Below, piece after piece: positions 1-41,119 of a stretch of DNA of 44,209 nt. A model generated the notes under the pieces. The model had not been told where the DNA came from and made no database searches. It was given only the letters and a program-made list of their open reading frames with translations. The first letter of the stretch is position 1. Each line of letters opens with the position of its first letter. A program made the position numbers and the translations under genes. Source of the stretch: a virus; UHGV virus genome UHGV-0377591; one strand, written 5' to 3'.

Positions 1-2
1 AA

Positions 3-44
3 CCGAATGAAATGCTGGTAGTGACAGAAGAGGATTTGGAATAG
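3..44 (+). CDS. 3' end of an ORF entering from the left edge (…PNEMLVVTEEDLE*); probably the wrapped end of the primase/helicase gene
   Basis: Open frame from the window edge to TAG at 42-44. Codon phase matches ORF 42013..44209 if position 44209 joins position 1. Confidence 0.4.
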   Translation, partial: PNEMLVVTEEDLE

Positions 45-46
45 GT

Positions 47-76
47 AAAAAAAAAGAAAGGGGCGTTAAGCCCCTT
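47..76 (-). terminator. Rho-independent terminator after the HTH gene (also closes the rightward ORF ending at 44)
   Basis: Stem GGGGC-GTTA-GCCCC at 60-74 preceded on the plus strand by A9 (47-55), which is a T-run on the minus strand. Confidence 0.7.
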
Positions 77-281
77 CACCGAACGCCAGCCACTTGGCGT
101 CTACTTGCAGCACTTCCGCCAGTTTAAACAGCGTCGCCGGGCGGACGTCCTGAGTTACCCCAAGTGCCAGTTGGTTAATCGCGCCCTGGGAAACGCCAGT
201 CAGGACAGCCAGACGGCGCTGGGAGATGCCGAGTTCTTTGCGGCGTTGTTCTACACGGATGCCTAGTTCAGATGGTTGCAT
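66..281 (-). CDS. XRE-family helix-turn-helix transcriptional regulator (Cro/CI-like), 71 aa
   Basis: ORF track; HTH signature ELGISQRRLAVLTGVSQGAINQL; GGAG ribosome-binding site upstream; diverges from the early operon. Confidence 0.8.
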   Translation of the reverse strand: MQPSELGIRVEQRRKELGISQRRLAVLTGVSQGAINQLALGVTQDVRPATLFKLAEVLQVDAKWLAFGEGA

Positions 282-311
282 GTCAATTACTCCTTAGTCA
301 GTTGATATGTG

Positions 312-325
312 AATAGTACCATATT
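312..325 (-). promoter_or_regulatory. Imperfect operator palindrome AATAG-TACC-ATATT upstream of the HTH gene
   Basis: Minus-strand reading gives TACTATTCACAT about 30 nt upstream of the HTH start, the same core as the class II promoters below; no good -35. Confidence 0.4.
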
Positions 326-345
326 AATTATTTTAGAAAAGCCCA

Positions 346-374
346 TTGACATGTGAATAGTTCGCTATTATAGT
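346..374 (+). promoter_or_regulatory. Early sigma70-like promoter (class I) with operator palindrome in the spacer
   Basis: TTGACA (346-351), 17-bp spacer, TATAGT (369-374); AATAG-TTCG-CTATT at 356-369 lies inside the spacer. Confidence 0.6.
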
Positions 375-405
375 TAGTCCATACAAAACGAGAGGAGAGA
401 AACAA

Positions 406-903
406 ATGTTAGAACAATTTCTGAAATTACTGGAACGTTTCGTAGTTGCACACGAACTGATTGCAGCGAACAGTGCAAAACAAGTTGTTCATGCCGACGC
501 GCCGCTGGAAGTAGAGACAGTAGTGTATACCAAAAAAGCGGCGGGCGAGTGTGCCGAAGAAGCAAAAGAAATCACGGTTGAAGGTGAAGACGTCGTTGAC
601 ACTAAACCTGCGGAGGAAGAGAAGCCGAAACGCAAGACGCGTAAAGCTAAAGCAGAGGAACCGACGCCAGAGCCGGAAGAAGAGAAAAAAGAAGTAGATT
701 ACCAATCTCTGCGTGACCAGATTCAGGCTATCGACGATGCAATTAACGAAGGCCCGAGCGATGCCGCGTGCGATGATTCGGATGAACTGCTAGAAGAGTT
801 CACTGGCAAGAAGATGAAGATTGCCGCGATTAAAGACGAAGACCTGGCCGAATACCTGGAACGCCTGACGGCAATCAAGAACAAGTATTTCGAAGAAGAA
901 TAA
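406..903 (+). CDS. Highly acidic early protein, 165 aa, function unknown (candidate DNA mimic)
   Basis: ORF track; strong ribosome-binding site GAGAGGAGAGA; very high Glu/Asp content with a central Lys-rich stretch; ends KYFEEE. Confidence 0.7.
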   Translation: MLEQFLKLLERFVVAHELIAANSAKQVVHADAPLEVETVVYTKKAAGECAEEAKEITVEGEDVVDTKPAEEEKPKRKTRKAKAEEPTPEPEEEKKEVDYQSLRDQIQAIDDAINEGPSDAACDDSDELLEEFTGKKMKIAAIKDEDLAEYLERLTAIKNKYFEEE

Positions 904-910
904 CTATCTC

Positions 911-930
911 GCGGCCTTCGGGCCGCTTTA
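911..930 (+). terminator. Hairpin terminator or attenuator
   Basis: GCGGCC-TTCG-GGCCGC followed by TTTA; short T-run. Confidence 0.45.
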
Positions 931-946
931 ACTGAGGGTCGTAATT

Positions 947-1219
947 ATGATTTACCAACTCTACCGCGCCGTTGACTGGCGGGATAACGCAGAGGCGCTA
1001 TGGCTGTTGCGCGCTCCGTCCGGCGCACACCAGATGGAAGAGATGGCGTACTTAGGCAAAGTACCGCGGCCTAAAGACATAGGCCGTCACGTGTCGCAGA
1101 TTAAGCGCACGACTTTTGCCAAGCCTGACTTTTATGTCTTCGAGTCGATGTATGGGTGGGTCATGCATTGCCATCACCAGACACGGCATTTGATTGACCA
1201 GTGGGAGAACAGGGTATGA
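947..1219 (+). CDS. Hypothetical protein, 90 aa
   Basis: ORF track; stop overlaps the next start (ATGA at 1216-1219). Confidence 0.6.
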   Translation: MIYQLYRAVDWRDNAEALWLLRAPSGAHQMEEMAYLGKVPRPKDIGRHVSQIKRTTFAKPDFYVFESMYGWVMHCHHQTRHLIDQWENRV

Positions 1220-2457
1220 TTCTAAAAGAACGTGGCGGCAATAACGATGTGCACGCCTTACTGTCACCGTCAGGCGCTAAAAAGTGGCTAAGCTGCGCCG
1301 CATCGCTGGCCTGTGAAAAAGATATTCCTAACACATCTGGTAAAGACGCCGTTACAGGGACCGCGTGTCACACCATAGCCGAGGTCCATTTAAATCAGTA
1401 CATCAAAGGCACTGCGTTGCCGTTAGAGCGTGAAGTCGGTGCTTACGTGCTGGATGAAGGCAAAGGCCAGATTAAGGCGTTAATCAGCCCTATGAAAGGT
1501 GCGGTACTTATTACGGCGGACATGATTGAGCAGGTGCGTAAGTACACCGACTACTGCAAACCGATTATCGACGTAGCGACTTACGCCAAGCTGGAAATGC
1601 GCGTCAATCTTACAGAGGTGCTGCATCCGGGATATGAAGGCGTTGAGACGTTCGGGACCGCTGACCTTGTTGCCGTGCAGGAACTGGCGAACACCGACGA
1701 GCACATGCTCATTATTGGAGACCTTAAAACAGGACGGCACCGTGTTGAAGCGAAAGAAAACAAGCAGCTTATGCTTTATGCTCTCGGTGTTTATCGCCGA
1801 CTCAAGAGACGATATAACATCACAGTTGTTCGTCTGGTCATCTTCCAGCCGTACGCTGGGGGCGCGTCGGAGTGGGACATCTCGGTTGAAGGTCTGGAAC
1901 TGTTCGCTAAGTTCGCACGGAAACGTGCACTGTTAGCATTAGATGCGTATTTCCGTGGTAAAAAGAACCTTAAAGCGTCGGACTTCAAGCCGTCAGTAGA
2001 TGGTTGCCAGTGGTGTCGGTTCTCTGAACAGTGCGCCGCGCGTACAAAAACCGTTAACTCTGTACTGGCGGAAGAACTGGAAGATGACTTTGCGCCGGAG
2101 CTTACGCCGGAGCAACTCGTAACCGAGTATGAGAAGTTGCCGTTGTTGCGTCAACACATCGACAAGGTTGAGAAAGCTATGGCTGCCGCGTTGCATTCCG
2201 GTAAGAAAGTTCCGGGGTACAAGCTGGTCGAGGGTCGTCCTGGTAATCGTGCGTGGAAAGATGCAGAGAAAGTAGCAGAACTCTACGGCGACAAGCTGAC
2301 TAAAGAAGTGCTCATGACGCCGACAGAAGCTGTTAAAGTTATCCCGGAAGAAGAACTGAAAGACTTCATTACCCGTAAGCCGGGAGCGCCATGCGTCGCC
2401 GCGGCAGACGATAAACGGCCTGAGTGGGACAGTGTAACAGAGGAGGATTTAGAATGA
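1216..2457 (+). CDS. PD-(D/E)xK Cas4/RecB-like exonuclease with Fe-S cysteine cluster (DUF2800-type)
   Basis: Start moved to ATG 1216 (GGAG upstream). Motifs IGDLKTGR and QLMLYALG; C-terminal CQWCRFSEQC plus N-terminal Cys; ends VTEEDLE. Confidence 0.75.
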   Translation: MILKERGGNNDVHALLSPSGAKKWLSCAASLACEKDIPNTSGKDAVTGTACHTIAEVHLNQYIKGTALPLEREVGAYVLDEGKGQIKALISPMKGAVLITADMIEQVRKYTDYCKPIIDVATYAKLEMRVNLTEVLHPGYEGVETFGTADLVAVQELANTDEHMLIIGDLKTGRHRVEAKENKQLMLYALGVYRRLKRRYNITVVRLVIFQPYAGGASEWDISVEGLELFAKFARKRALLALDAYFRGKKNLKASDFKPSVDGCQWCRFSEQCAARTKTVNSVLAEELEDDFAPELTPEQLVTEYEKLPLLRQHIDKVEKAMAAALHSGKKVPGYKLVEGRPGNRAWKDAEKVAELYGDKLTKEVLMTPTEAVKVIPEEELKDFITRKPGAPCVAAADDKRPEWDSVTEEDLE

Positions 2458-2954
2458 GTTTAGTCCGGGAGCGTTTCATTTATGACAACGGGAAACTAAT
2501 CTATCGCCACAATACAAAAAGAATGTTAGCGGGTCATGAGGCAGGAAGCCTCCACCATTCAGGGTATGTGCAGATATACATTAATCGTAAGTCCTACCAA
2601 AGAAGCCGTTTAATATGGGAGTACCACAACGGCCCTATACCTGAAGGGTTTGAGGTGGACCATATAAATGCGATAAGAAATGATGACAGGATAGAGAATC
2701 TCCAGTTAATCGCCCATAGTGATAATGTGGCTAAAGGTGGTATTCAAACCGGAAGAAGTCATAACAAAAGTGGGTACACTGGCGTGTTTTGGCGCAAAAG
2801 CCACGGTAAATGGCAAGCTGGAATTACCGTAAACGGGCAATATCGTTACCTTGGACTATTCGAAACTCCTGAACATGCTAACGTGGCAAGAAAGAATTTT
2901 GAAAGTAATTTGCTAAAAGAAGTTGACTACCGAATAGCGAACTATTATAGTTAA
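2454..2954 (+). CDS. HNH homing endonuclease with AP2-like DNA-binding domain
   Basis: Start moved to ATG 2454 (AGGAGG upstream, ATGA overlap). HNH core EVDHIN…NDDRIENLQL; AP2-like GYTGVFWRKSHGKWQAGITVNGQYRYLGLFETPEHA. Confidence 0.8.
   Translation: MSLVRERFIYDNGKLIYRHNTKRMLAGHEAGSLHHSGYVQIYINRKSYQRSRLIWEYHNGPIPEGFEVDHINAIRNDDRIENLQLIAHSDNVAKGGIQTGRSHNKSGYTGVFWRKSHGKWQAGITVNGQYRYLGLFETPEHANVARKNFESNLLKEVDYRIANYYS
2923..2951 (+). promoter_or_regulatory. Early sigma70-like promoter (class I) embedded in the 3' end of the HNH gene
   Basis: TTGACT (2923-2928), 17-bp spacer, TATAGT (2946-2951); AATAG-CGAA-CTATT at 2933-2946. Confidence 0.55.
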
Positions 2955-2980
2955 ATCACTGGCCGGGCAGTTCCCGGAGT

Positions 2981-3015
2981 AAACTTAAAATCTAAACTTA
3001 AAATCTAAACTTAAT
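2981..3015 (+). repeat. 13-bp tandem direct repeat AAACTTAAAATCT, about 2.7 copies
   Basis: Two exact units at 2981-2993 and 2994-3006 plus a partial third; sits between the promoter and the SSB-like gene. Confidence 0.8.
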
Positions 3016-3027
3016 GAGGGCTGAACT

Positions 3028-3654
3028 GTGGGACTGAAATTAAATCTGCGTAAAGTAAACACTGCATGGGTTAACGTATTCGAACGCGAAAAAGACCGTG
3101 AAAACGATGATGGCTCAATCACTAAAGGCCAGTACAGCGCAACGATTATCCTGCCGTCTGACCATGCTCAAATCGATGCGCTCTACGACACCGTTTACGC
3201 GGTAGTTGAAGAAGCATTGGGCGCCGCCGCTGCCGAGAAGTGGATGAAATCCAACTACGGCGAAGGTAAGCACATGGATAAATGCGCGATTAAAGACATT
3301 GCCGAGCGCGACAATCCGTTTGAAGACTTCCCGGAAGGATTCTACTTCAAAGCGAAGGCGCAGAAACAGCCACTAATTGTAACCTCTAAAAAAGGTGAGA
3401 CACAGGTAGAGCAGGACTTCAATGCAGACGGCGAGCAGATTGAAGGTGAACAGGTTTACAGCGGCTGTGTTGCCAACGTAAGCGTTGAAATCTGGTTCAG
3501 CCAGAAATACAAAGTTCTCGGTGTTAACCTGCTGGCGATTAAATACGTCGGTGAAGGTAAGGCGTTCGGGGGTTCTAAAGTAGCCGCCAGCGTCGACGAC
3601 CTGGAAGACGACGAAGAGGGTGAAGCACCGCGCCGCGAACGTCGCCGCCGCTAA
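3028..3654 (+). CDS. Putative single-strand DNA-binding protein (DUF2815-like), 208 aa
   Basis: ORF track (GTG start after GAGGG). Sits between the Cas4-like exonuclease and the DNA polymerase; acidic C-terminal region DDLEDDEEGE. Function assigned from context and memory only. Confidence 0.5.
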   Translation: MGLKLNLRKVNTAWVNVFEREKDRENDDGSITKGQYSATIILPSDHAQIDALYDTVYAVVEEALGAAAAEKWMKSNYGEGKHMDKCAIKDIAERDNPFEDFPEGFYFKAKAQKQPLIVTSKKGETQVEQDFNADGEQIEGEQVYSGCVANVSVEIWFSQKYKVLGVNLLAIKYVGEGKAFGGSKVAASVDDLEDDEEGEAPRRERRRR

Positions 3655-3673
3655 TATCTGAATCAATTTAACT

Positions 3674-3697
3674 AAGGCCCTTCATTGGGCCTTTTTA
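3674..3697 (+). terminator. Hairpin terminator or attenuator ahead of the DNA polymerase gene
   Basis: AGGCCC-TTCATT-GGGCCT followed by TTTTT. Confidence 0.6.
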
Positions 3698-3715
3698 CTA
3701 AGGGTCGAAAATAAT

Positions 3716-5890
3716 ATGCAAGACTTACTGTTTAAAGATACTGAAACTTTTAGCGAAGCCGATTTGAAAAAGGTTGGGGCTTACCGGTACTCGGAAGACC
3801 CATCAACAGAGATTATTCTCGCCACTTACGCGTTTAACGATGAACCAGTGGAGGTTTACGACCCTACAAAAGGCCGAAATATACCTAGAGAACTGCGACG
3901 TTGCCTTGCTGGCCTTGAAAAGCCGAATTACGGGTTGAAACTTGTTGGTCACAATTTCCTTCAATTTGACAGACTCGTCATAGAGCGCTGCTGGGGTTAC
4001 AAAATTCACCCAACTAACATCATTGATACGATGCTTCTTGCGTTTCGACACGCGCTGCCCGGGTCACTGGCGGCGTTGTGTGAAGTACTTGGGGTGTCAG
4101 CAGAAAATGCGAAGGATAAACGCGGCAAGGCTCTGATTCAGCGTTTTTCTAAACCGACGCCGAAGAACTACAAAATACGTCGCTACACCGCGGATACACA
4201 CCCGGAAGAGTGGGCCTGGTTTATTAAGTACGGTATTAGCGACATTACATCGATGCGTGAAGTCTTCCATAAGCTGCCGCGTTGGGGTAACTCAGAGTTC
4301 GAGGACCGGGTACTGGAACTGGACCAATTAATCAACGACCGCGGGTTTAAGGTTGACGTCGCACTGGCGGAAGCCGCGATTGAAGCCGTGGAGAAGCACA
4401 AAGCGCAGTTACAGGAAGAAGCCCAGCGCAAATACGGCGGCTCGCTTACTGGTAAAGACTTCCTTCCTATTCTGCGTGAACTGGCCCCTGCGCATCGCAT
4501 CCATAACGCACAGAAGTCTACTCTTAACGACCTGCTGGCTGACGAGGATTTACCCGACGATGCACGCATGATTATCGAAATGCGCCTCGGGGCCGCGTCA
4601 ACTGCGTCAACGAAATATAACCCGCTGTTGCTAGGCCGCTCGTCTGACGACCGCCGTCGTGGTTGCATCCAGTACGGCGGAGCTAAGCGTACATTACGAT
4701 TTGCCGGTAAAGGCTTCCAGCCGCAGAACCTGGCGCGCGGGTATTATCATGATGAGGAACTGGATAAAGGCATTTCAGCGTTACTTAAGGGGCGGGCGCA
4801 CCGACGATTCGATGTCGCTAAATTAACGGCATCGACGGTGCGTAGCTGCATTATACCGGAAGCTGGGCATAAGTTTGTCGTTGCCGATTACTCTAACGTC
4901 GAAGGTCGTGGGTTGGCGTGGCTGGCTGGCGAAGACGATTTAATAGAAGTATTTGTAAACGGGGTTGATGTGTATAAGAAACTCGCATCAACCGTGTTCA
5001 ACGTGGCGTATGAAGACGTAACAAAGGACCAAAGACAAATAGCCAAAGCAATGGTTCTGGGCCTCGGCTACGCGGGGGGTGTCGGTGCTTTCGTCACGTT
5101 TGCTAAAAACTTAGGTCTTGATTTGAATGATATGACACGCACTTTAGACGGAACTTTCCCGGACCATATTTGGGCCGCTACCGCACGCGGTTACGAGTGG
5201 GCGCGTATCCAGGAAGCAAAGCGACCGCCGCATCCTGGTGAGAAGGATGACCGACCATCGTATATTCTTGATAAGAAAGTGTGGCGTACCTGTGATGCGT
5301 TAAAACGTATGTATCGGGAAGCTAATCCTGCAATAGTCCAATTCTGGCGAGATATTGAAGACGCGGCAATGGCAGCTATCCGCAATCCAGGTAAAGAGTT
5401 CACCGCAGGCCCGCGCGGCGTTAAGTTTTCGCGTAACGTAGAAACAGACAACAACGGCAACAAGGTCGCCGGTTGGTGGTTGCGTATGACGTTGCCGTCG
5501 GGCCGCGTTATGTCTTACCCTGGCGTCGGGTTAAGCGTGTCGAAAGAGACAGACGAAGACGGAAAGGTGTCTACTAACGTGCGCATCAAGTACCAGGGCG
5601 AAAACCAGTTAACCCGTCAGTGGGGCTTCCAGTACACCTACTCCGGTAAACTGGTGGAAAACTGCACGCAGGCGCTGTGCCGCGATTTGCTGGCTAATGC
5701 GCTGCTGAACGTTGAAGCAAACGGCTATCCAATTGTACTTCATGTTCACGATGAGATTATCTGCGAGACCCCAGATTTACCGGAATACAATGTAGCTGAA
5801 CTGGAACGATTGATGTGCGAATTACCGAAGTGGGCAGAGGGTTTCCCTCTTGTAGCGGAAGGTGCGGAGATGAAGCGTTATGCTAAGTAA
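3716..5890 (+). CDS. Family A (Pol I-like) DNA polymerase with 3'-5' exonuclease domain, 724 aa
   Basis: Exo I motif DTETFS near the N-terminus; polymerase motif C HVHDEIICE near the C-terminus. Confidence 0.9.
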   Translation: MQDLLFKDTETFSEADLKKVGAYRYSEDPSTEIILATYAFNDEPVEVYDPTKGRNIPRELRRCLAGLEKPNYGLKLVGHNFLQFDRLVIERCWGYKIHPTNIIDTMLLAFRHALPGSLAALCEVLGVSAENAKDKRGKALIQRFSKPTPKNYKIRRYTADTHPEEWAWFIKYGISDITSMREVFHKLPRWGNSEFEDRVLELDQLINDRGFKVDVALAEAAIEAVEKHKAQLQEEAQRKYGGSLTGKDFLPILRELAPAHRIHNAQKSTLNDLLADEDLPDDARMIIEMRLGAASTASTKYNPLLLGRSSDDRRRGCIQYGGAKRTLRFAGKGFQPQNLARGYYHDEELDKGISALLKGRAHRRFDVAKLTASTVRSCIIPEAGHKFVVADYSNVEGRGLAWLAGEDDLIEVFVNGVDVYKKLASTVFNVAYEDVTKDQRQIAKAMVLGLGYAGGVGAFVTFAKNLGLDLNDMTRTLDGTFPDHIWAATARGYEWARIQEAKRPPHPGEKDDRPSYILDKKVWRTCDALKRMYREANPAIVQFWRDIEDAAMAAIRNPGKEFTAGPRGVKFSRNVETDNNGNKVAGWWLRMTLPSGRVMSYPGVGLSVSKETDEDGKVSTNVRIKYQGENQLTRQWGFQYTYSGKLVENCTQALCRDLLANALLNVEANGYPIVLHVHDEIICETPDLPEYNVAELERLMCELPKWAEGFPLVAEGAEMKRYAK

Positions 5891-6011
5891 ATTAATTATC
5901 GCAGTACTGGCGGGATTCGCCGCAGGTGTCTACTGTCACGAGGGTCAATACGGATTGATGGTCGCTGTATTGGGTATGTTTATTGCAATTTATCTGTGGG
6001 TGTTGGAATGA
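5880..6011 (+). CDS. Small membrane protein, 43 aa (not in the ORF track)
   Basis: Manual translation MLSKLIIAVLAGFAAGVYCHEGQYGLMVAVLGMFIAIYLWVLE; two hydrophobic segments; overlaps the polymerase stop. Confidence 0.35.
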   Translation: MLSKLIIAVLAGFAAGVYCHEGQYGLMVAVLGMFIAIYLWVLE

Positions 6012-6106
6012 AAATTTACTGGTTATACGAGGAAGACTGTCGAATCTGTCCGCGCTGCGGGATTGAGCATACGAAACGTGAGGGGTGCGTAGATGAGTAC
6101 GCCTGA
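6008..6106 (+). CDS. Small four-cysteine zinc-ribbon-like protein, 32 aa (not in the ORF track)
   Basis: Manual translation MKIYWLYEEDCRICPRCGIEHTKREGCVDEYA; overlaps both neighbours. Confidence 0.3.
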   Translation: MKIYWLYEEDCRICPRCGIEHTKREGCVDEYA

Positions 6107-6380
6107 GGGGCGCGTGCAGAAATACGCAAAAGACCGATTCGAGGCCATCGGTGGCCTCGTACGCAAATTGTCGTACGAAAATAGAGTGGGTGCCCCTGAC
6201 CTGCTGGTAATTCTCCCCGGCGGCATTGTCTGGTTTATCGAGGTTAAGAAAGACGAAAACACGAAGCCAGACCCGCACCAGCTACGTGAACACGAGCGGA
6301 TGCGTAAACGCGGCGCGAATGTTTTTGTCGTTGGTTCGATAAAACAGGTTGACGACCTAATAGCGAACTATTATAGTTAG
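6093..6380 (+). CDS. VRR-NUC family PD-(D/E)xK nuclease, 95 aa
   Basis: Motifs GAPDLLVI and FIEVKKDEN; C-terminus IANYYS is encoded by the promoter/operator element. Confidence 0.75.
   Translation: MSTPEGRVQKYAKDRFEAIGGLVRKLSYENRVGAPDLLVILPGGIVWFIEVKKDENTKPDPHQLREHERMRKRGANVFVVGSIKQVDDLIANYYS
6349..6377 (+). promoter_or_regulatory. Early sigma70-like promoter (class I) embedded in the 3' end of the VRR-NUC gene
   Basis: TTGACG (6349-6354), 17-bp spacer, TATAGT (6372-6377); AATAG-CGAA-CTATT at 6359-6372. Confidence 0.55.
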
Positions 6381-6410
6381 TCACACACCAACAATATAAG
6401 GAATTGAGAA

Positions 6411-6605
6411 ATGAAACACGAATATGACCGCAAACCAGCACGTGACATCGTACCTGGCGATATGATTTTCAACGTTAAGACCCGTCGTCCTGTTGCCGTT
6501 GATACGGTGTTCGTCGAGTCGAACGGTAAACTGGTTATCGAAGACGTAACGGGTAATGTTACGGCGTTTGGGCGGAAGGAATTGGTACTCTACGTTAAGG
6601 GTTGA
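6411..6605 (+). CDS. Hypothetical protein, 64 aa
   Basis: ORF track; ribosome-binding site AAGGAATTGAGAA upstream. Confidence 0.6.
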   Translation: MKHEYDRKPARDIVPGDMIFNVKTRRPVAVDTVFVESNGKLVIEDVTGNVTAFGRKELVLYVKG

Positions 6606-6607
6606 TT

Positions 6608-8032
6608 ATGTCTAAATTTATCCGTCGAGAGTACCAGAAGCTCATGACTTCGTTCATGCTGCAACACCCGCGCTGTAATATTTGGGCCTCGATGGGCGCG
6701 GGCAAAAGTTCCGCAACGATGTGGGTTCTAAACCGCCTGTTCCGCAACGGGCAGCTTACGGAAGAGGACCGCGTGTTAATCCTCGCCCCGTTACGTGTTG
6801 CATCCGGTACGTGGCCCGCAGAACAAACTAAGTGGGGTTTCCCTTGTCTGAGTGTCGTCGATGCGACCGGTAGCGAGAGGCGTCGCATCGCGGCGCTGGA
6901 GTCGGACGCTAACGTGGTATGCACCAACTACGAAGTTATCGAGTGGCTGATTGACTACTACGGCAAAGACGACTGGCCTTTTACGGTTATCGTTGCCGAT
7001 GAGAGCACGAAACTGAAATCATTCCGCAGTCGTTCAGGCGGCAGCAAGCGGGCAAAGGCGCTTAGCAAGGTTGCGTTCGGTAAGGTCAAGCGTTTTATAA
7101 ACCTGACGGGAACGCCATCACCTAACGGCCTCAAAGACTTGTGGGGCCAGAACTGGTTTATCGACGCGGGCGAGCGCCTCGGCTCATCGTACACGGCATT
7201 CACCGACCGCTGGTTCAACTCGGTACAGAAAGGCAAATCGGCTATGGCGCGCGAATACCACGCTCGCCCTGGTGCGGATAATGAAATTCACCAGAATATG
7301 AAAGACATCAGCCTGACGATTGACGCCGCCGAGTGGTTTGGTTGTGAAGCACCTATTATCGTGCCGATGGAAATTGACCTGCCGAAGAAAGCGCGTCAGG
7401 CGTACATAGATATGGAGGAGAAGCTATTCGCAGAACTGGAAAGTGGGGAAGTTGAAGCGGCTAACGCCGCGGCGAAGACGTCGAAGTGCTTGCAGATTGC
7501 ATCTGGTGCCGTATATGTGTCAGGGCCGGACGGAGAAGCAACGAAAGACTGGGAGAAAGTGCACGACACGAAACTGGATGCGCTTGAGTCAATTGTTGAG
7601 GAGTTACAAGGTGCGCCGTTGCTGGTGGCCTATCAGTTCAAGCACGAACTGGAGCGCATCCTTAAGAGATTCCCACAAGCCCAGGCGTTCGCCAAAGGCG
7701 CGAATGGCAATAAGCAGATGGAAGCGTGGAACCGTGGTGAAATCGAAATCCTATGCGTGCACCCTGCGTCAGCCGGGCATGGTCTCAATTTACAGGACGG
7801 TGGCCATCATCTGGCGTTTATTTCGCAAGGGTGGAACCTTGAGCACTATTTGCAGGTTGTTGAGCGTATAGGTCCAGTCCGACAAAAACAGGCGGGCCAC
7901 GAACGACCGGTATTTCTCTACCACATCGTTGCTAAAGACACGCTGGATGAGGTTGTTGCCGCGCGTACAGACGAGAAGAAATCGGTCCAGGAAGAGTTGC
8001 TTAATTACATGAAGAGACGAGGTAAGAAATGA
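6608..8032 (+). CDS. SF2 (SNF2/DEAD-like) DNA helicase
   Basis: Start moved to ATG 6608 (AAGGG upstream). Walker A SMGAGKSS; motif II VIVADESTKLKS. Confidence 0.8.
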   Translation: MSKFIRREYQKLMTSFMLQHPRCNIWASMGAGKSSATMWVLNRLFRNGQLTEEDRVLILAPLRVASGTWPAEQTKWGFPCLSVVDATGSERRRIAALESDANVVCTNYEVIEWLIDYYGKDDWPFTVIVADESTKLKSFRSRSGGSKRAKALSKVAFGKVKRFINLTGTPSPNGLKDLWGQNWFIDAGERLGSSYTAFTDRWFNSVQKGKSAMAREYHARPGADNEIHQNMKDISLTIDAAEWFGCEAPIIVPMEIDLPKKARQAYIDMEEKLFAELESGEVEAANAAAKTSKCLQIASGAVYVSGPDGEATKDWEKVHDTKLDALESIVEELQGAPLLVAYQFKHELERILKRFPQAQAFAKGANGNKQMEAWNRGEIEILCVHPASAGHGLNLQDGGHHLAFISQGWNLEHYLQVVERIGPVRQKQAGHERPVFLYHIVAKDTLDEVVAARTDEKKSVQEELLNYMKRRGKK

Positions 8033-8214
8033 AACTTAATGTTGACGATGAAATATACAGCATACACTCATTCAATACTTTCACCATCGAGTACATATCG
8101 AAAGACGGCAACAGCTTTGTTTTGGTAAGCTCGGACGGTAAATACGAAAAGTCACGATGCTACACGCTGCCGGACATAAAGCGCAGTTTCAAGAAAAGCG
8201 AAGGTAAGAAATGA
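8029..8214 (+). CDS. Hypothetical protein, 61 aa
   Basis: ORF track; ATGA overlap with the helicase stop. Confidence 0.55.
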   Translation: MKLNVDDEIYSIHSFNTFTIEYISKDGNSFVLVSSDGKYEKSRCYTLPDIKRSFKKSEGKK

Positions 8215-8348
8215 ACATCACAGCCCCGATTCCAGCATTGCAAAAACGTATCAAGGAACTCGAAGAGGAGGTTCTACGACTACGGCAGCAAAGAGACGCC
8301 GCTAATGCTCAACTGGCGTTTGTACTGGAGAAGTTATCAGAAGAGTAG
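8211..8348 (+). CDS. Small coiled-coil protein, 45 aa (not in the ORF track)
   Basis: Manual translation MNITAPIPALQKRIKELEEEVLRLRQQRDAANAQLAFVLEKLSEE; ATGA overlap. Confidence 0.4.
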   Translation: MNITAPIPALQKRIKELEEEVLRLRQQRDAANAQLAFVLEKLSEE

Positions 8349-8350
8349 AG

Positions 8351-8378
8351 AAAAGGCCCCGTTTGGGGCCTTTTGTAT
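8351..8378. terminator. Bidirectional rho-independent terminator between the convergent early and late operons
   Basis: AAAA-GGCCCC-GTTT-GGGGCC-TTTT. Confidence 0.8.
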
Positions 8379-10751
8379 TTAAATGACGAATTGAGATGAA
8401 GATTTAACCGTTATTGTGTTACCGGAAGCCCCCTTGTTAATCAGGGCTATCTTGCCGCCAGAGTGACCAGTAACAGTTTGTTGAACAGTGCCGCCGGTAG
8501 TGGGTTTAACTGTTATTGTAGGTACTGAAGGTGCCAGGCCGGCTGTGAGCATGACTTCGCCGGTCACATCGCAAGTCAAGGTGCCGATAACAGTAAGTGC
8601 GCCAAAAAGCATCGTCGAGATCTCGATGCCAGTCGCCACTCGCTTGGCGACAACTCCACTTTGTGACGTGGGTTTGTAGTAAAAAACAACACCACAACCA
8701 ACGGGCAAAGCTGACAGGACAACATTTTGAACATTTGATGACTTAGTAGCGCCGTACATATCCGGTGCTTCATCATTTGCGGTTTCAGCCGCATATGACA
8801 ATAACAGATCAGCTTTATCCCTTAATTGACCGTAAACACCCTTTATCGCATTTGCAGCCAGGTATACAGAGGCGTTCTGAGAACATGATTCGTTCAGCTC
8901 TCCTCTGAATAACAGAGCGGGAGGGTATACTTTTGACGGCGTACCATCGTAAATAATCTCAATCTGATTCAGTCCTTTTCTAAGGATCCCAGTTCGTGTG
9001 GTGAGTTTGTTCGTAAACGATGAGACGCCATTACTCGCGATATTACCGGAGCTATATGCTGTATTACGGGTATCTTGTTGGCGTATTGATACAGTATTTG
9101 CGCGCCTGGAACCAATGTAAGTAGGGTTATATGGCTCAAAAATAACCATTGATATGTCAGAAGTATCACACCAGACAAAATATCGTATGGTTAAATTTTC
9201 AGTAGCGGGCTTAACCACGCCCCATCCGGTAAGCCCATCCAGGTATGAATTTCCGCTAAGTCGCTCCATAGAAACGTCATATGTACTGCCGGAAGGGTAC
9301 CCGAATGGTTGGATATCGTTAGGCGACACAGGCAGGAAATTATTCCCTTTTGTGGCCTTATGGACGCGATAAGGCATAACCTTGGTCGCGGCATAAGCGC
9401 CAATATATTGGTGACCAAGGGGCGCAAAGTGCGTGTAGTCGAAAGAGCCATCGGTAGGACGACGGCAAATTTCTCCTAAGGTGTAGCTACCGACATCTCT
9501 GTACATCTCAGTTACTGCCTGAGAGAGATCGAGGAACTCTACCGCGGGGAACAGGCGTTCAATATGCTTCTTGATTGATGCCTCGAGAGCCGCCCGTTGT
9601 GAGCCATTCTGGTTCATTGAAACAACGCAGACAGCACATCCATAGCCCCATGCTTTACGGATAAACTGCTCAAAACGGAATAAGTACTGATCGAACCCTA
9701 ACGTATCCAGTTGGCCGTTATCGTTAACGCCCATAGACATAAAGCAGACATCCGGTGGAACATTCCCGTATGCAGTGTTTTTGAAAAAGCCATGGTCGAA
9801 ATTACGATTAGCCCACCCGTCAATAAGTCGCTTTCCAGAAGATGCGCAGTTTTCTGCTTTAAAGATGAAAGCACCATTTTTTGTAAATCGGTTAAGCCAG
9901 TCCGTGAAGGTACGGAACCAGGAACCTGCGCCACCATTGCCATTGTGGTCGTAATTAGTCGAAGAAAGGTCCCCGTTTGAATCAGTTGGGTTGGCTACCC
10001 AGTCGGTTCCGTATGCGCCGTCTGTGATTGAGTCACCAATGATACCAACACGACATAGCGTATTGCGGCGAGCGAACTGGTTTATTACGTTGAATGCAGT
10101 GTATTTGCTCCCATGAGTTGCCAGTGAAACGTCGAAAATGTGCTCGTTACCCCATGGGTCGCGCGTGAGAATTTTTCCTTCACCAGTAAATTTTGTTACA
10201 TCATCATCTGGCAGGAAATTACAGCGTAGCTGGACGTCTTTTGGGATATAAACTTTGCCAGGGAATGCATACAATGCGGCCCGGTTATCTGTTGTGCTGT
10301 TTATAACCACCCCAGGAACATATTTAACGGCGGTTGCGTCCGTTCTGTACATGCCATTTTCAAGGTCATTGCGTAGATTCGGGTCTGTTTGCGGTTTCCA
10401 ATTTGTGTCCAGTAACGGGTTAGTTTCCGCGGGGACAACCTTTGGTAAAGAACCGCCCCATGAATACCAGGCCATGCTTACTGGGTCATAAACGACCTTA
10501 TTGCGGTCTGTAGCCGATAATGTCCCGCCGGTAGTGAAATCAAAAGATGCCGGGAAGAACCCCGCATCTCGCAACACGGCAGGGAGAGTCTTCTGCATCT
10601 GACCAGTAACCGCGTTGGTCGCATAATCGATATCCGCACCACCGGTTACGCCGCCGGATTTACCGGTAATAACCTCGGCTTCGAAAATCTGGTGCTTCTT
10701 GGCGGTTTGTAAATCCGCCAGGCTTAAAACGTCACCGCATCCGCTTGACAT
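8379..10751 (-). CDS. Tail fibre/spike protein with internal SGNH (GDSL) hydrolase-like domain, 790 aa
   Basis: GDSL block RVGIIGDSITDGAYG; last gene of the tail module; Ser/Thr/Gly-rich C-terminus. Confidence 0.75.
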   Translation of the reverse strand: MSSGCGDVLSLADLQTAKKHQIFEAEVITGKSGGVTGGADIDYATNAVTGQMQKTLPAVLRDAGFFPASFDFTTGGTLSATDRNKVVYDPVSMAWYSWGGSLPKVVPAETNPLLDTNWKPQTDPNLRNDLENGMYRTDATAVKYVPGVVINSTTDNRAALYAFPGKVYIPKDVQLRCNFLPDDDVTKFTGEGKILTRDPWGNEHIFDVSLATHGSKYTAFNVINQFARRNTLCRVGIIGDSITDGAYGTDWVANPTDSNGDLSSTNYDHNGNGGAGSWFRTFTDWLNRFTKNGAFIFKAENCASSGKRLIDGWANRNFDHGFFKNTAYGNVPPDVCFMSMGVNDNGQLDTLGFDQYLFRFEQFIRKAWGYGCAVCVVSMNQNGSQRAALEASIKKHIERLFPAVEFLDLSQAVTEMYRDVGSYTLGEICRRPTDGSFDYTHFAPLGHQYIGAYAATKVMPYRVHKATKGNNFLPVSPNDIQPFGYPSGSTYDVSMERLSGNSYLDGLTGWGVVKPATENLTIRYFVWCDTSDISMVIFEPYNPTYIGSRRANTVSIRQQDTRNTAYSSGNIASNGVSSFTNKLTTRTGILRKGLNQIEIIYDGTPSKVYPPALLFRGELNESCSQNASVYLAANAIKGVYGQLRDKADLLLSYAAETANDEAPDMYGATKSSNVQNVVLSALPVGCGVVFYYKPTSQSGVVAKRVATGIEISTMLFGALTVIGTLTCDVTGEVMLTAGLAPSVPTITVKPTTGGTVQQTVTGHSGGKIALINKGASGNTITVKSSSQFVI

Positions 10752-18813: not shown

Positions 18814-18842
18814 TTGCGCACCCCAACATAATAGGATACTAT
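18814..18842 (+). promoter_or_regulatory. Class II promoter with operator palindrome overlapping the -10
   Basis: TTGCGC (18814-18819), 17-bp spacer, TACTAT (18837-18842); AATAG-GATA-CTATT at 18830-18843. Confidence 0.5.
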
Positions 18843-18883
18843 TCACTTACACCAACAATGTTAACTCAAACAGGATCTACACC

Positions 18884-28113: not shown

Positions 28114-28363
28114 GTTTCCCCTTTCTCGATAAGTAAAGCCCCGCTTTAAGGCGGGGCGCTAGTCCTTATCATTTAAACATAGAAACGGCGTAATCTCAGT
28201 AAACCAGTTACTTTTTACACAAGCAATAGAGTATGGCCCTTCCGAACGCGTCAGCGTAACTACACTCAGGACTTACGTCCCGCTCCGTTACCTGCCCGCG
28301 CCGCGGTCGCTTGCTCATACTTCACAAGCTCAGGTGGAGCTTATCATATTTTCAGTGAAAAGT

Positions 28364-28432: not shown

Positions 28433-28461
28433 TTGCGCGCACCAACATAATAGGGTACTAT
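28433..28461 (+). promoter_or_regulatory. Class II promoter with operator palindrome overlapping the -10
   Basis: TTGCGC (28433-28438), 17-bp spacer, TACTAT (28456-28461); AATAG-GGTA-CTATT at 28449-28462. Confidence 0.5.
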
Positions 28462-28488
28462 TCAGTTAACTTAAACAGGAGATGAGAA

Positions 28489-29010
28489 ATGGTTACTACA
28501 GTAATTACTTTCCCTGCGTATGTAGGGGCGAAAATATGCAGGGCTAAAAATGATGTTCGCTACTATTTGAACGCTTTTTACATAGACCCTGAAGGATTGA
28601 TAGTGTCTACGGACGGTCATAGATTGTTCTGCGACAATGTGAAGACCAACGTTGAGAAAGGGACTCTCATAGACATCAAAGGGAGAGAGCCTTCTAAATT
28701 TAACTACGCGGAGGTAAACCACGACAACGGCAGTGTATCTTTCTATAACGATAATCGTGCGCTTATATGTACACTTCCGGTAGATGTTGTAGAAGGAAAC
28801 TTTCCTGACTGGAGACGCGTGGCGCACATCACACCGGGTGTTGTCGATAGTATAGGGTTCACCCTGCGTTATTTGGCAGACGCGTACAAGATTTCTAAGG
28901 CATACAAAAATGAAATTGCTCGTTTCGATTTCCAGGACCAAACCAGAGGATGCAAAATACAATTTTCAAACACGGCCTTTATGGTGTTAATGCCTGCGCG
29001 ATTTAAATAA
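28489..29010 (+). CDS. Hypothetical protein, 173 aa, encoded on the opposite strand inside the head-gene module
   Basis: ORF track; own promoter and AGGAGATGAGAA ribosome-binding site; own terminator. Confidence 0.65.
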   Translation: MVTTVITFPAYVGAKICRAKNDVRYYLNAFYIDPEGLIVSTDGHRLFCDNVKTNVEKGTLIDIKGREPSKFNYAEVNHDNGSVSFYNDNRALICTLPVDVVEGNFPDWRRVAHITPGVVDSIGFTLRYLADAYKISKAYKNEIARFDFQDQTRGCKIQFSNTAFMVLMPARFK

Positions 29011-39620: not shown

Positions 39621-39763
39621 CAGCTACCTCCAGTTCGCCGTAAACATGCTCGTTGTCGCCGCTGCATACACTGCAAACTCGCAACTCAGCATAAAGCTGT
39701 TCCAGTTTCTCAACCGTCAGATACTTATACATCTTCCGTCTCTCCTCTCGTTTGTGTAAATGA

Positions 39764-39792
39764 ATAGTAGCCTATTCTATCTTAATGTGCAA
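39764..39792 (-). promoter_or_regulatory. Class II promoter (leftward) with operator palindrome
   Basis: Minus strand TTGCAC, 17-bp spacer, TACTAT; plus-strand AATAG-TAGC-CTATT at 39763-39776. Confidence 0.5.
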
Positions 39793-41056: not shown

Positions 41057-41090
41057 AACCCTAACTCCTCTGTCTCGTTTCGATAAGTGA

Positions 41091-41119
41091 ATAGTATCCT
41101 ATTATATTGGGGTGTGCAA
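41091..41119 (-). promoter_or_regulatory. Class II promoter (leftward) with operator palindrome
   Basis: Minus strand TTGCAC, 17-bp spacer, TACTAT; plus-strand AATAG-TATC-CTATT at 41090-41103; extra half-site GAATAGTT at 41122-41129. Confidence 0.55.

What the first reader, a model, noticed from the sequence alone, without database searches (positions are those of the whole stretch)
2923..2954. Early promoters sit inside the last codons of two nuclease genes, giving both proteins the same IANYYS tail
The promoter/operator elements at 2923-2951 and 6349-6377 lie within the 3' ends of the HNH endonuclease gene (…VDYRIANYYS*) and the VRR-NUC gene (…VDDLIANYYS*, second site 6349..6380). The nucleotide string AATAGCGAACTATTATAGTTA is identical in both, so the shared C-terminal peptide is dictated by the regulatory DNA. 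This dual coding/regulatory use suggests the promoter cassette spread by duplication or that the nuclease genes inserted next to existing promoters.
Basis: seen in the sequence. Interest (0 to 1): 0.55.

Follow-up and report, generated by a model that had tools for sequence, protein, structure and literature searches.

The report
Promoters overlapping two nuclease gene ends
Two host-type promoter/operator elements of this E. coli phage really do lie inside the last codons of two nuclease genes and give both the same six-residue tail, but this is an ordinary by-product of a compact phage genome: one gene is a mobile endonuclease parked against an existing promoter, and the other is a core gene whose last helix doubles as a promoter.

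Summary
The window is a Kagunavirus (Guernseyvirinae) genome. TTGACT-N17-TATAGT (2923-2951) and TTGACG-N17-TATAGT (6349-6377) each enclose a 14-bp palindrome, AATAG-N4-CTATT. They lie in the last 10 codons of an HNH_3+AP2 endonuclease ORF (2454-2954) and a VRR-NUC ORF (6093-6380).

The shared IANYYS tail exists because both ORFs read the same 21-nt operator/-10 string in the one frame that has no stop.

Site 1 is an older promoter of the ssDNA-binding-protein gene.
- It is intergenic in Snoke, K1G and 16 other relatives.
- The HNH gene is one of at least 7 alternative cargo genes in a slot between the exonuclease stop and the -35 box.
- HNH homologues in that slot end WILLK*, WILVK* or GRLK*. 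Their tails are set by the local promoter.

Site 2 lies in a core gene, the orthologue of crystallised saNUC (PDB 4QBN). The promoter overlaps the codons of helix alpha3.
- Across 47 distinct relatives, third-codon positions there are almost frozen.
- Amino acids vary only where the promoter tolerates change.

The closest precedent is T4 segG, which carries the gene 32 promoters. This is a new member of a known kind, of modest interest. No transcription data exist.

The parts
2923..2951 (+). P(ssb): sigma-70-type promoter. -35 TTGACT at 2923-2928, 17-nt spacer, -10 TATAGT at 2946-2951. It lies in the last 10 codons of the HNH ORF.
   Evidence: The orthologous promoter is conserved in front of the DUF2815 gene in more than 50 relatives.
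2933..2946 (.). 14-bp palindromic operator AATAGCGAACTATT between -35 and -10, overlapping the -10 box.
   Evidence: 7 exact and 4 one-mismatch AATAG-N4-CTATT sites in the window, against 1.18 expected.
2454..2954 (+). HNH_3 + AP2 endonuclease gene (166 aa), the mobile cargo of the exonuclease/ssb slot. The ATG overlaps the exonuclease stop (ATGA). The tail ...VDYRIANYYS* is read from the promoter.
2440..2457 (+). Left junction of the slot, GAGGAGGATTTAGAATGA. Synonymous exonuclease codons form a Shine-Dalgarno sequence, followed by an ATGA stop/start overlap.
   Evidence: 25 of 25 occupied slots have GAGGAGGA...TGA and 18 of 18 empty slots have GAAGAAGA...TAA.
3028..3654 (+). DUF2815 / Enc34-type (gp2.5-like) ssDNA-binding protein gene, the gene served by P(ssb). 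It is followed by a terminator-like hairpin at about 3665-3697.
6349..6377 (+). Second promoter. -35 TTGACG at 6349-6354, 17-nt spacer, -10 TATAGT at 6372-6377. It lies in codons 86-95 of the VRR-NUC gene.
6359..6372 (.). Operator AATAGCGAACTATT, identical to the copy at site 1.
6093..6380 (+). VRR-NUC (Holliday-junction-resolvase-like) gene, 95 aa, a core gene. The C-terminal helix alpha3 (residues 83-93) is encoded by the promoter DNA.
   Evidence: PMC4103454.
6411..6605 (+). First gene downstream of the second promoter (64 aa), followed by the SNF2-type helicase gene at 6602-8032.
346..374 (+). Third promoter of the same build (TTGACA-N17-TATAGT, operator AATAGTTCGCTATT at 356-369). It is intergenic, with a further operator-like site at 312-325.
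66..281 (-). 71-aa HTH_3 (Cro/CI-type) protein gene, next to the two operators at 312 and 356. It is the candidate operator-binding repressor; this is an inference.
   Evidence: The Snoke orthologue is annotated as Cro-like.

Best explanation
Overview. Two members of a genome-wide family of host-RNA-polymerase promoters overlap the 3' ends of upstream genes. Each promoter carries a 14-bp palindromic operator, AATAG-N4-CTATT, between -35 and -10. The operator is presumably bound by the phage's small Cro-like HTH protein. The promoter module contains a stop codon in two of three frames: TGA inside TTGAC and TAG inside AATAG. In the third frame it reads V-D-x-(L/R)-I-A-x-Y-Y-S before a stop just after the -10 box. 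Any ORF entering in that frame therefore acquires the tail.

Site 1. The promoter of the ssDNA-binding-protein gene is ancestral. It forms the fixed right border of a variable cargo slot that follows the exonuclease gene. The HNH endonuclease is a mobile cargo gene in that slot. It is translationally coupled to the exonuclease (Shine-Dalgarno sequence plus ATGA) and reads into the promoter, so its last 8 residues are a passive read-through peptide.

Site 2. The promoter evolved within the codons of the C-terminal helix of a core VRR-NUC gene. That stretch is now under double constraint. The protein keeps V-D-x-L-I and a helix. The DNA keeps the hexamers and the operator half-sites.

Shown versus inferred. 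Shown: sequence anatomy, comparative context and conservation pattern. Inferred: promoter activity, repressor binding and mobility by homing.
For: Site 1 is ancestral and the HNH gene is cargo:
- In Snoke, K1G and 16 other genomes the exonuclease stop is followed after 4 nt by the same promoter, with no gene between them.
- L028 carries the window's own promoter allele (TTGACTACCGAATAGCGAGCTATTATAGTTAAATCAC) without the HNH gene.
- The slot holds at least 7 cargo types. Small ORFs end ...GWKG* or ...KIKR* using the TGA in the -35 box, or ...FYLTHE* using the TAG in the operator. In Jerseyvirus genomes the exonuclease itself stops in the -35 box.
- The full-length HNH gene is found in only one other phage record and in one 96%-identical protein cluster.
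- HNH homologues of 55-69% identity in the same slot end KEVDWILLK*, KSIDWILVK* and EGIDGRLK*, all inside the local promoter.
- Between the window and Esher4, identity jumps from 66-74% in the last 200 nt of the exonuclease gene to 94-99% across the HNH gene and promoter.
- The AlphaFold2 model gives the tail low confidence, pLDDT 49-65.

Site 2 is under double constraint:
- The gene's 3' end is conserved in about 450 phage records.
[quoted passage not shown] The model puts residues 83-93 in a helix.
- In 47 distinct sequences, mean third-position entropy is 0.27 bits for codons 86-95 against 0.76 bits for the rest. None of 74 other 10-codon windows is as low, and 122 of 100000 random samples are.
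- The codons CTA/TTA, ATA, TAT-TAT and AGT/ATT are essentially invariant. In the window's long ORFs, CTA makes up 6.6% of Leu codons and ATA 17% of Ile codons.
- Amino acids change only at residues 88, 91 and 92, which correspond to the promoter spacer and the operator's central 4 bases.
- Distant homologues (40-56% identity) end ...Q[VI]DxLIxEL...* at the same length, without a promoter, and are coupled to the next gene.

Precedent: the promoters of T4 gene 32 lie inside the free-standing endonuclease gene segG (PMC2988022).
Against: - No transcription start-site or expression data for this phage group were found in the literature searches. Promoter function rests on consensus match, position and conservation.
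- The only published treatment found calls the AATAG...CTATT motif a 'phage RNA polymerase promoter', on the basis of a repeat finder (PMC9825357).
- Binding of the HTH protein to the operator is untested.
- Whether the HNH enzyme is active, or entered the slot by homing rather than by ordinary recombination between the slot's conserved borders, is unknown.
Confidence: 0.8

Rival explanations
1. The identical 21-mer reflects recent copying between the two promoters, by gene conversion or duplication of a promoter cassette. On this view the shared tail is a trace of concerted evolution, not of independent constraint.
For: - Only the window lineage (central operator bases CGAA at both sites) and L028 (CGAG at both sites) have identical central operator bases at sites 1 and 2. 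The other 43 genomes differ, mostly TTAG at site 1 against CGAA at site 2.
- The site-1 allele of this lineage, TACCGAATAGCGA, is unlike the common ACCTGAATAGTTAG.
- The repeat finder extends the similarity to 45 nt at 87% identity.
Against: - The shuffle test is weak: 1241 of 20000 shuffles reach 2 matches.
- The two copies differ in the -35-proximal spacer (TACCG against GACCT) and in all flanking sequence.
- The operator's central bases vary freely at both sites across relatives.
- Even if conversion happened, it explains only the identity of 4 bases. It does not explain why the promoters lie in the ORFs.
Confidence: 0.15
2. IANYYS is a functional C-terminal peptide that is selected in both proteins, for example as a docking motif that brings both nucleases to the same partner. 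The DNA similarity would then be a consequence.
For: - L-I and Y-Y are invariant in the VRR-NUC tail.
- Both proteins act on DNA and are encoded in the replication/recombination module.
Against: - HNH homologues lack the tail.
- The same DNA is non-coding in 18 genomes.
- The invariant residues use invariant, partly rare codons. The pattern of variation follows the promoter and operator rather than side-chain chemistry: residue 92 is N, S, G, D, H or R.
- 13 of 47 VRR-NUC genes have lost the stop and add 6-11 further residues.
- The HNH tail is modelled with low confidence.
Confidence: 0.03
3. The elements are not promoters. They are binding sites or recombination sites of another kind, for example borders for cassette exchange or targets of the HNH enzyme, and only resemble the sigma-70 consensus.
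For: - No transcription data exist.
- Mosaic breakpoints coincide with the element: at 2450 against Esher4, and at about 3073 against L028.
- All cargo types end at the -35 box.
Against: - Both hexamers are conserved with a fixed 17-nt spacer across Kagunavirus and Jerseyvirus, at both sites.
- The palindrome sits in the classical repressor position.
- Each element is followed by a ribosome-binding site and a gene within 30-75 nt.
- After the ssb gene comes a terminator-like hairpin, which makes a self-contained transcription unit.
- A role as a recombination border is compatible with promoter function.
Confidence: 0.1

Closest known systems
Phage T4 free-standing homing endonuclease genes with embedded promoters: segG (32.1) carries the middle and late promoters of gene 32; similar cases are segA, segE, mobB and mobC (Edgell, Gibb and Belfort 2010, PMC2988022)
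   Same: - A free-standing endonuclease gene sits between conserved genes in the same orientation, without its own promoter, and is expressed from upstream transcripts.
- The promoter of the downstream essential gene lies inside the endonuclease coding region.
- In both cases that downstream gene encodes the ssDNA-binding protein.
- Presence or absence of the endonuclease gene varies among close relatives.
   Different: - Here the promoter is a sigma-70-type promoter with a repressor operator, not a T4 middle or late promoter.
- The overlap is limited to the last 10 codons.
- The slot also accepts at least 6 non-endonuclease cargo genes with the same junction design.
- Homing has not been shown.
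saNUC, the VRR-Nuc protein of Salmonella phage SETP3 (PDB 4QBN; Pennell et al. 2014, PMC4103454)
   Same: It is the orthologue of the window's 95-aa protein: E=1.4e-50, alignment to the last residue, ...FKQVDKLIEHYY. [quoted passage not shown]
   Different: The structural paper does not consider the gene's DNA. That the alpha3 codons carry a promoter and operator is shown only by the comparison made here.
Lambdoid-type Cro/CI operators that overlap promoter cores
   Same: - Short palindromes lie between or over the -35 and -10 boxes.
- There are several copies, two of them next to a small HTH gene.
   Different: - The phage group is regarded as virulent.
- Operators are spread over at least 8 promoters genome-wide.
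- Binding and regulatory logic are untested.
PHIRE-derived 'phage promoters' of Kagunavirus fBC-Eco01, consensus tgAATAGTa-ccTATTat-T (PMC9825357)
   Same: It is the same repeated motif as the operator/-10 part of the elements studied here.
   Different: That paper assigns the motif to a phage-encoded RNA polymerase and does not note the -35 boxes, the palindrome or the overlap with coding sequence. In this work I came across no phage RNA polymerase gene, although I did not annotate the whole window.

Membership tests
Sigma-70 (host RNA polymerase) promoter | -35 and -10 hexamers close to TTGACA / TATAAT with a 17 +/- 1 bp spacer | tested here: met
   TTGACT-17-TATAGT and TTGACG-17-TATAGT, each 10/12. 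Together with the site at 346 they are the three best hits in 1-9000.
Sigma-70 (host RNA polymerase) promoter | Hexamers and spacing conserved in orthologous positions of related genomes | tested here: met
   Site 2: the hexamer positions are invariant, or change TTGAC to TTGAT and TATAGT to TATATT, in 47 distinct sequences. Site 1: conserved in more than 50 loci.
Sigma-70 (host RNA polymerase) promoter | Transcription start mapped downstream of the -10 box | not testable with these tools
   No transcript data for Guernseyvirinae were found.
Repressor operator (Cro/CI-type HTH) | Palindromic site that overlaps the promoter core, repeated in the genome, with an HTH gene next to copies of it | tested here: met
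   AATAG-N4-CTATT: 7 exact and 4 near matches against 1.18 expected. An HTH_3 gene at 66-281 lies next to the sites at 312 and 356.
Repressor operator (Cro/CI-type HTH) | Specific binding by the cognate protein and repression | not testable with these tools
   Inference only.
Free-standing HNH homing endonuclease gene | HNH catalytic domain with an added DNA-binding domain | tested here: met
   HNH_3 at E=8e-18, above the cut-off. AP2 at E=1.2e-4, below the cut-off. Invariant D69, H70, N82 and N91 in the alignment. The model has a beta-sheet plus helix after the HNH core.
Free-standing HNH homing endonuclease gene | Presence/absence polymorphism at one precise site between conserved genes in close relatives, with the element more similar than its flanks | tested here: met
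   Empty sites in 18 genomes. HNH 96% identical between the window and Esher4, against 66-74% in the adjoining exonuclease end.
Free-standing HNH homing endonuclease gene | Cleavage of the empty allele near the insertion site and gene conversion (homing) | not testable with these tools
   The same slot also carries non-endonuclease cargo with the same junctions, so ordinary recombination is an alternative route.
VRR-NUC / Holliday-junction-resolvase-like nuclease | Sequence and fold of the VRR-Nuc domain with the PD...(D/E)xK motif | tested here: met
   PDB 4QBN at E=1.4e-50 over residues 3-94. [quoted passage not shown] APD36 and E50-V-K52 are invariant. The Pfam match alone is below the cut-off.
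Dual-use (coding + regulatory) DNA | Excess conservation of synonymous positions confined to the overlap, in a pattern that follows the regulatory motif | tested here: met
   Third-position entropy 0.27 against 0.76 bits, with 0 of 74 other windows as low. Critical third positions score 0-0.15 bits and non-critical ones 0.75-1.08 bits. The sequences are related and there was no tree correction.

The most novel reading that the evidence does not exclude
The promoter/operator of the ssb gene is more than a promoter that happens to be overlapped. In this reading it is the right-hand border of a dedicated cargo slot.

- The left border is a switchable exonuclease gene end: GAAGAAGA...TAA when the slot is empty, and GAGGAGGA...ATGA when it is occupied.
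- The right border is a promoter that terminates any incoming reading frame in all three frames and restarts transcription.
- Unrelated genes can therefore be swapped in without polar effects.
- The resident HNH-AP2 endonuclease may recognise the empty junction or the promoter itself. That would make the slot a recombination hot spot, and possibly a site where the endonuclease also modulates ssb transcription, as I-TevI does at its own operator.
Probability: 0.2. Interest if true: 0.5.

Novelty: new member of a known kind. Interest (0 to 1): 0.3.

Why it matters
The finding is mainly useful as a clean, well-sampled example.

- It shows how a compact virulent phage genome packs a promoter and operator into the last helix of a structurally solved protein. 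It also shows how mobile or cargo genes are docked against an essential promoter without disturbing it.
- For annotation, it corrects the published reading of the AATAG...CTATT repeat as a phage-polymerase promoter.
- It warns that C-terminal peptides shared by unrelated phage proteins can be read-through of regulatory DNA.
- For phage engineering, it marks the exonuclease/ssb junction as a natural insertion site for payload genes in Kagunavirus and Jerseyvirus therapy candidates.

It does not open a new mechanism.

Tried and rejected
- Literature searches for transcription data or promoter mapping in Guernseyvirinae, Kagunavirus or Jerseyvirus found only in-silico predictions. One search with a loose term setting returned only irrelevant papers.
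- Folding the 5' UTR after site 1 gave no significant structure overall: z = 0.47.
- The test for concerted evolution of the operator's central bases between sites 1 and 2 was not significant: 2 of 45 genomes, with 1241 of 20000 shuffles reaching that number.
- My first script for exonuclease stop positions mis-extended several hits (columns 'gap' and 'exo3'). The junction analysis was redone with an explicit pattern. Only the promoter, ORF-end and tail columns are used.
- I compared the HTH protein and intergenic region of a distant relative (L087) to look for co-variation between operator and repressor. The proteins are 39% identical and the operators differ, but this was too little to draw a conclusion.
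- A functional shared docking peptide was considered and rejected (see the rival explanations).

Full report
**What the window is.** The first 9 kb match about 460 phage records, most closely Escherichia phages Snoke, Shashou, K1G and K1H (87-91% identity) of the genus Kagunavirus, subfamily Guernseyvirinae. There is a large tail of Salmonella Jerseyvirus records. Around the finding the gene order is as follows:
- Cro-like HTH gene (66-281, minus strand)
- divergent control region
- small genes
- DUF2800 / PD-(D/E)XK exonuclease (1201-2457)
- HNH endonuclease (2454-2954)
- DUF2815 / Enc34-type ssDNA-binding protein (3028-3654)
- DNA polymerase A (3716-5890)
- small genes
- VRR-NUC (6093-6380)
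- a 64-aa gene (6411-6605)
- SNF2-type helicase (6602-8032)

The string AATAGCGAACTATTATAGTTA occurs at 2933-2953 and 6359-6379 and nowhere else, even with three mismatches; none is expected by chance. Both copies sit in TTGAC-N18-TATAGT, that is TTGACT or TTGACG, a 17-nt spacer, then TATAGT. A third such element at 346-374 is intergenic. Between the hexamers lies a 14-bp palindrome, AATAG-N4-CTATT. The window has 7 exact and 4 one-mismatch copies, against 1.18 expected. Two of these copies lie next to the HTH gene. The ORFs end ...KEVDYRIANYYS-TAA and ...QVDDLIANYYS-TAG. The first protein is HNH_3 (E=8e-18) followed by an AP2-like domain. The second is only a weak Pfam VRR_NUC match, but it is the orthologue of the crystallised VRR-Nuc protein of Salmonella phage SETP3, PDB 4QBN, at E=1.4e-50 (PMC4103454).

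**Why the tails are the same.** Read in three frames, the element GTTGACnnnnnAATAGnnnnCTATTATAGTTAR behaves as follows:
- One frame stops at the TGA inside the -35 box.
- One frame stops at the TAG inside the left operator half-site.
- Only the third frame is open until the TAA or TAG that follows the -10 box.

Both nuclease ORFs happen to use that third frame, so both read I-A-N-Y-Y-S from ATA GCG AAC TAT TAT AGT. This can be seen directly in the sequence.

**Site 1: an old promoter with a gene parked against it.**
- In Snoke and K1G the exonuclease stop is followed, after AGTG, by TTGACACCTGAATAGTTAGCTATTATAGT and then by the ssDNA-binding-protein gene. Nothing is encoded over the promoter.
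- A survey of 79 viral contigs and several GenBank records found this promoter in front of the ssb gene in more than 50 genomes.
- The space between the exonuclease and the -35 box is either empty or holds one of several unrelated genes: two kinds of small ORF that stop at the TGA in the -35 box (...GWKG*...KIKR*), one that stops at the operator TAG (...FYLTHE*), one that stops just upstream, further kinds in Jerseyvirus, and the HNH gene.
- In Jerseyvirus genomes with an empty slot, the exonuclease's own TGA lies in the -35 box.
- All 18 empty Kagunavirus-type slots have GAAGAAGAT-TTR-GAA-TAA. All 25 occupied slots have GAGGAGGAT-TTR-GAA-TGA, which is a Shine-Dalgarno sequence made by synonymous changes plus an ATGA stop/start overlap.
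- The full-length HNH gene occurs in only one other phage record, Esher4, with the same tail, and in one 96%-identical protein cluster.
- One HNH-less contig, L028, has the window's own promoter allele and 5' UTR.
- More distant HNH homologues (55-69% identity) occupy the same slot in Cornellvirus FSL SP-031 and in two metagenomic phages. There too the gene runs into the promoter, with V/I-D encoded by the -35 box, but the tails are WILLK*, WILVK* and GRLK*. A 47%-identical homologue in another slot has no promoter at its end.
- Between the window and Esher4, identity is 66-74% over the last 200 nt of the exonuclease gene and 94-99% over the HNH gene and promoter. This is the pattern of a recently exchanged module.
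- The AlphaFold2 model extends the AP2 helix through the tail, but confidence falls to 65 and then 49.

The HNH tail is therefore a passive read-through of a pre-existing promoter.

**Site 2: a promoter inside a core gene.**
- The VRR-NUC 3' end with its promoter is present in about 450 records.
- Among 47 distinct Guernseyvirinae sequences, codons 84-95 show almost no third-position change: mean entropy 0.27 bits for codons 86-95 against 0.76 bits for the rest of the gene. None of 74 other ten-codon windows is as low, and 122 of 100000 random draws are.
- The third positions that do vary are the fifth base of the -35 box (C/T), one spacer base, and a central base of the operator. Those that fall in the hexamers or in the operator half-sites score 0-0.15 bits.
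- L89, I90, Y93 and Y94 are invariant and use CTA/TTA, ATA and TAT-TAT. CTA and ATA are minority codons in the window's long ORFs, at 6.6% of Leu and 17% of Ile.
- Residues 88, 91 and 92 change freely (D/T/K/A/E; A/E; N/S/G/D/H/R).
- The stop that follows the -10 box is lost in 13 of 47 sequences, giving extensions of 6-11 residues.
- VRR-NUC homologues of 40-56% identity from other phage groups end at the same length with ...Q[VI]DxLIxEL...* or ...[VI]DS[IL]ExVxxLL*. They have no promoter-like hexamers and are coupled to the next gene. [quoted passage not shown]

The promoter therefore arose within existing helix codons: V-D gives GTTGAC and L-I gives CTAATA. The segment now serves both functions.

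**How it most likely works.** This part is inferred.
- Host RNA polymerase starts a short, self-contained ssb transcript at site 1. A terminator-like hairpin follows the gene at about 3665-3697.
- It starts a transcript for the 64-aa gene and the helicase at site 2.
- The small HTH protein probably binds the palindromes and modulates these and the other operator-bearing promoters.
- The HNH gene has no promoter of its own. It is translated from the exonuclease message through the Shine-Dalgarno/ATGA junction.

None of this has been measured. No transcript mapping for the group was found.

**Comparison with what is known.** The closest case is phage T4. [quoted passage not shown] In particular, the gene 32 (ssDNA-binding protein) promoters lie inside segG (PMC2988022). 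The arrangement here is the same in kind, with a sigma-70/operator promoter and a very short overlap. The repeated motif has been published for Kagunavirus fBC-Eco01 as a PHIRE-derived 'phage promoter', tgAATAGTa-ccTATTat-T, attributed to a phage RNA polymerase (PMC9825357). The -35 boxes, the palindromic nature of the motif and the HTH gene next to it argue instead for host promoters with an operator.

**Rivals.**
- Gene conversion between the two promoters is possible but weakly supported. Identical central operator bases at both sites occur in 2 of 45 genomes, and 1241 of 20000 shuffles reach that number.
- A functional shared peptide is contradicted by the homologue tails, the non-coding state of the DNA in relatives, the codon pattern and the frequent C-terminal extensions.
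- The view that the elements are not promoters at all cannot be excluded without experiments, but it fits the conserved hexamers and spacing poorly.

**Verdict.** The origin differs between the two sites: a cargo gene inserted next to an old promoter at site 1, and a promoter that evolved inside a core gene at site 2. This is a tidy new example of a known kind of arrangement. The most interesting by-product is the cargo slot with its two-state left junction and its promoter as right border.

Noticed in passing
window 2440-2457 and 2923; loci L002-L057: The gap between the exonuclease stop and the -35 box of the ssb promoter is a cargo slot with at least 7 alternative occupants. All 25 occupied slots have GAGGAGGA...ATGA (Shine-Dalgarno sequence plus stop/start overlap). 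All 18 empty slots have GAAGAAGA...TAA.
   Followed up: partly
window 312-325, 356-369, 2933-2946, 6359-6372, 18830-18843, 28449-28462, 39763-39776, 41090-41103 (near matches at 28358, 31264, 36740): A genome-wide family of AATAG-N4-CTATT palindromes sits over promoter -10 regions, and a Cro-like HTH gene (66-281) lies next to two of them. The sites at 18830(-), 28449(-) and 41090(+) share a longer consensus, GTGAATAGTAnCCTATTATnTTGGnGTGCGCAAG. The motif has been published as a 'phage RNA polymerase promoter' (PMC9825357), which seems mistaken.
   Followed up: partly
window 2963-2977: The hairpin CCGGGCAGTTCCCGG lies just after the predicted start of the ssb transcript. It is conserved in all relatives. 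Distant loci keep a paired stem through changes on both sides: L055 CCCAGCAGATTCTGGG and L087 CCGGACAGATTAAACCGG. The fold of the whole 5' UTR is not significant. It may be a processing or translational control element for the ssDNA-binding protein.
   Followed up: partly
window 2981-3016: A 13-nt tandem repeat, AAACTTAAAATCT, occurs about 2.5 times in the ssb 5' UTR. Esher4 and L028 have one unit fewer. The ssb gene starts with GTG in this lineage and with ATG in most relatives.
   Followed up: no
window 2250-2450 vs L001; window 3073 onward vs L028: There are sharp mosaic breakpoints. The end of the exonuclease gene is 66-74% identical to Esher4, whereas the HNH gene and promoter are 94-99% identical. 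L028 shares the promoter, the 5' UTR and the first 45 nt of ssb at 96% (except where the tandem-repeat copy number differs), then falls to about 65%.
   Followed up: partly
loci L008, L011, L013, L015, L020, L021, L028, L030, L042-L044, L047, L048, L053 (VRR-NUC 3' end): The stop codon just after the -10 box is lost in 13 of 47 distinct VRR-NUC genes. This adds SSHTPTI*, SKHIPQQYKEL* or longer extensions read from the 5' UTR of the next gene.
   Followed up: partly
window 28471-28962 (minus strand) and operator 28449-28462: A 163-aa minus-strand ORF ends (TAA) 8 nt before another operator-bearing element. This may be a third case of a gene end that abuts a promoter of this family.
   Followed up: no
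window 2909-2922 and 6335-6348: The 14 nt upstream of the two -35 boxes are 10/14 identical (TTTGCTAAAAGAAG and TTCGATAAAACAGG) and A-rich. HNH homologues also have GAAAAAGAAG or GAAAAAAGT there. This could be an UP-element-like contribution that is also encoded in protein-coding sequence.
   Followed up: no
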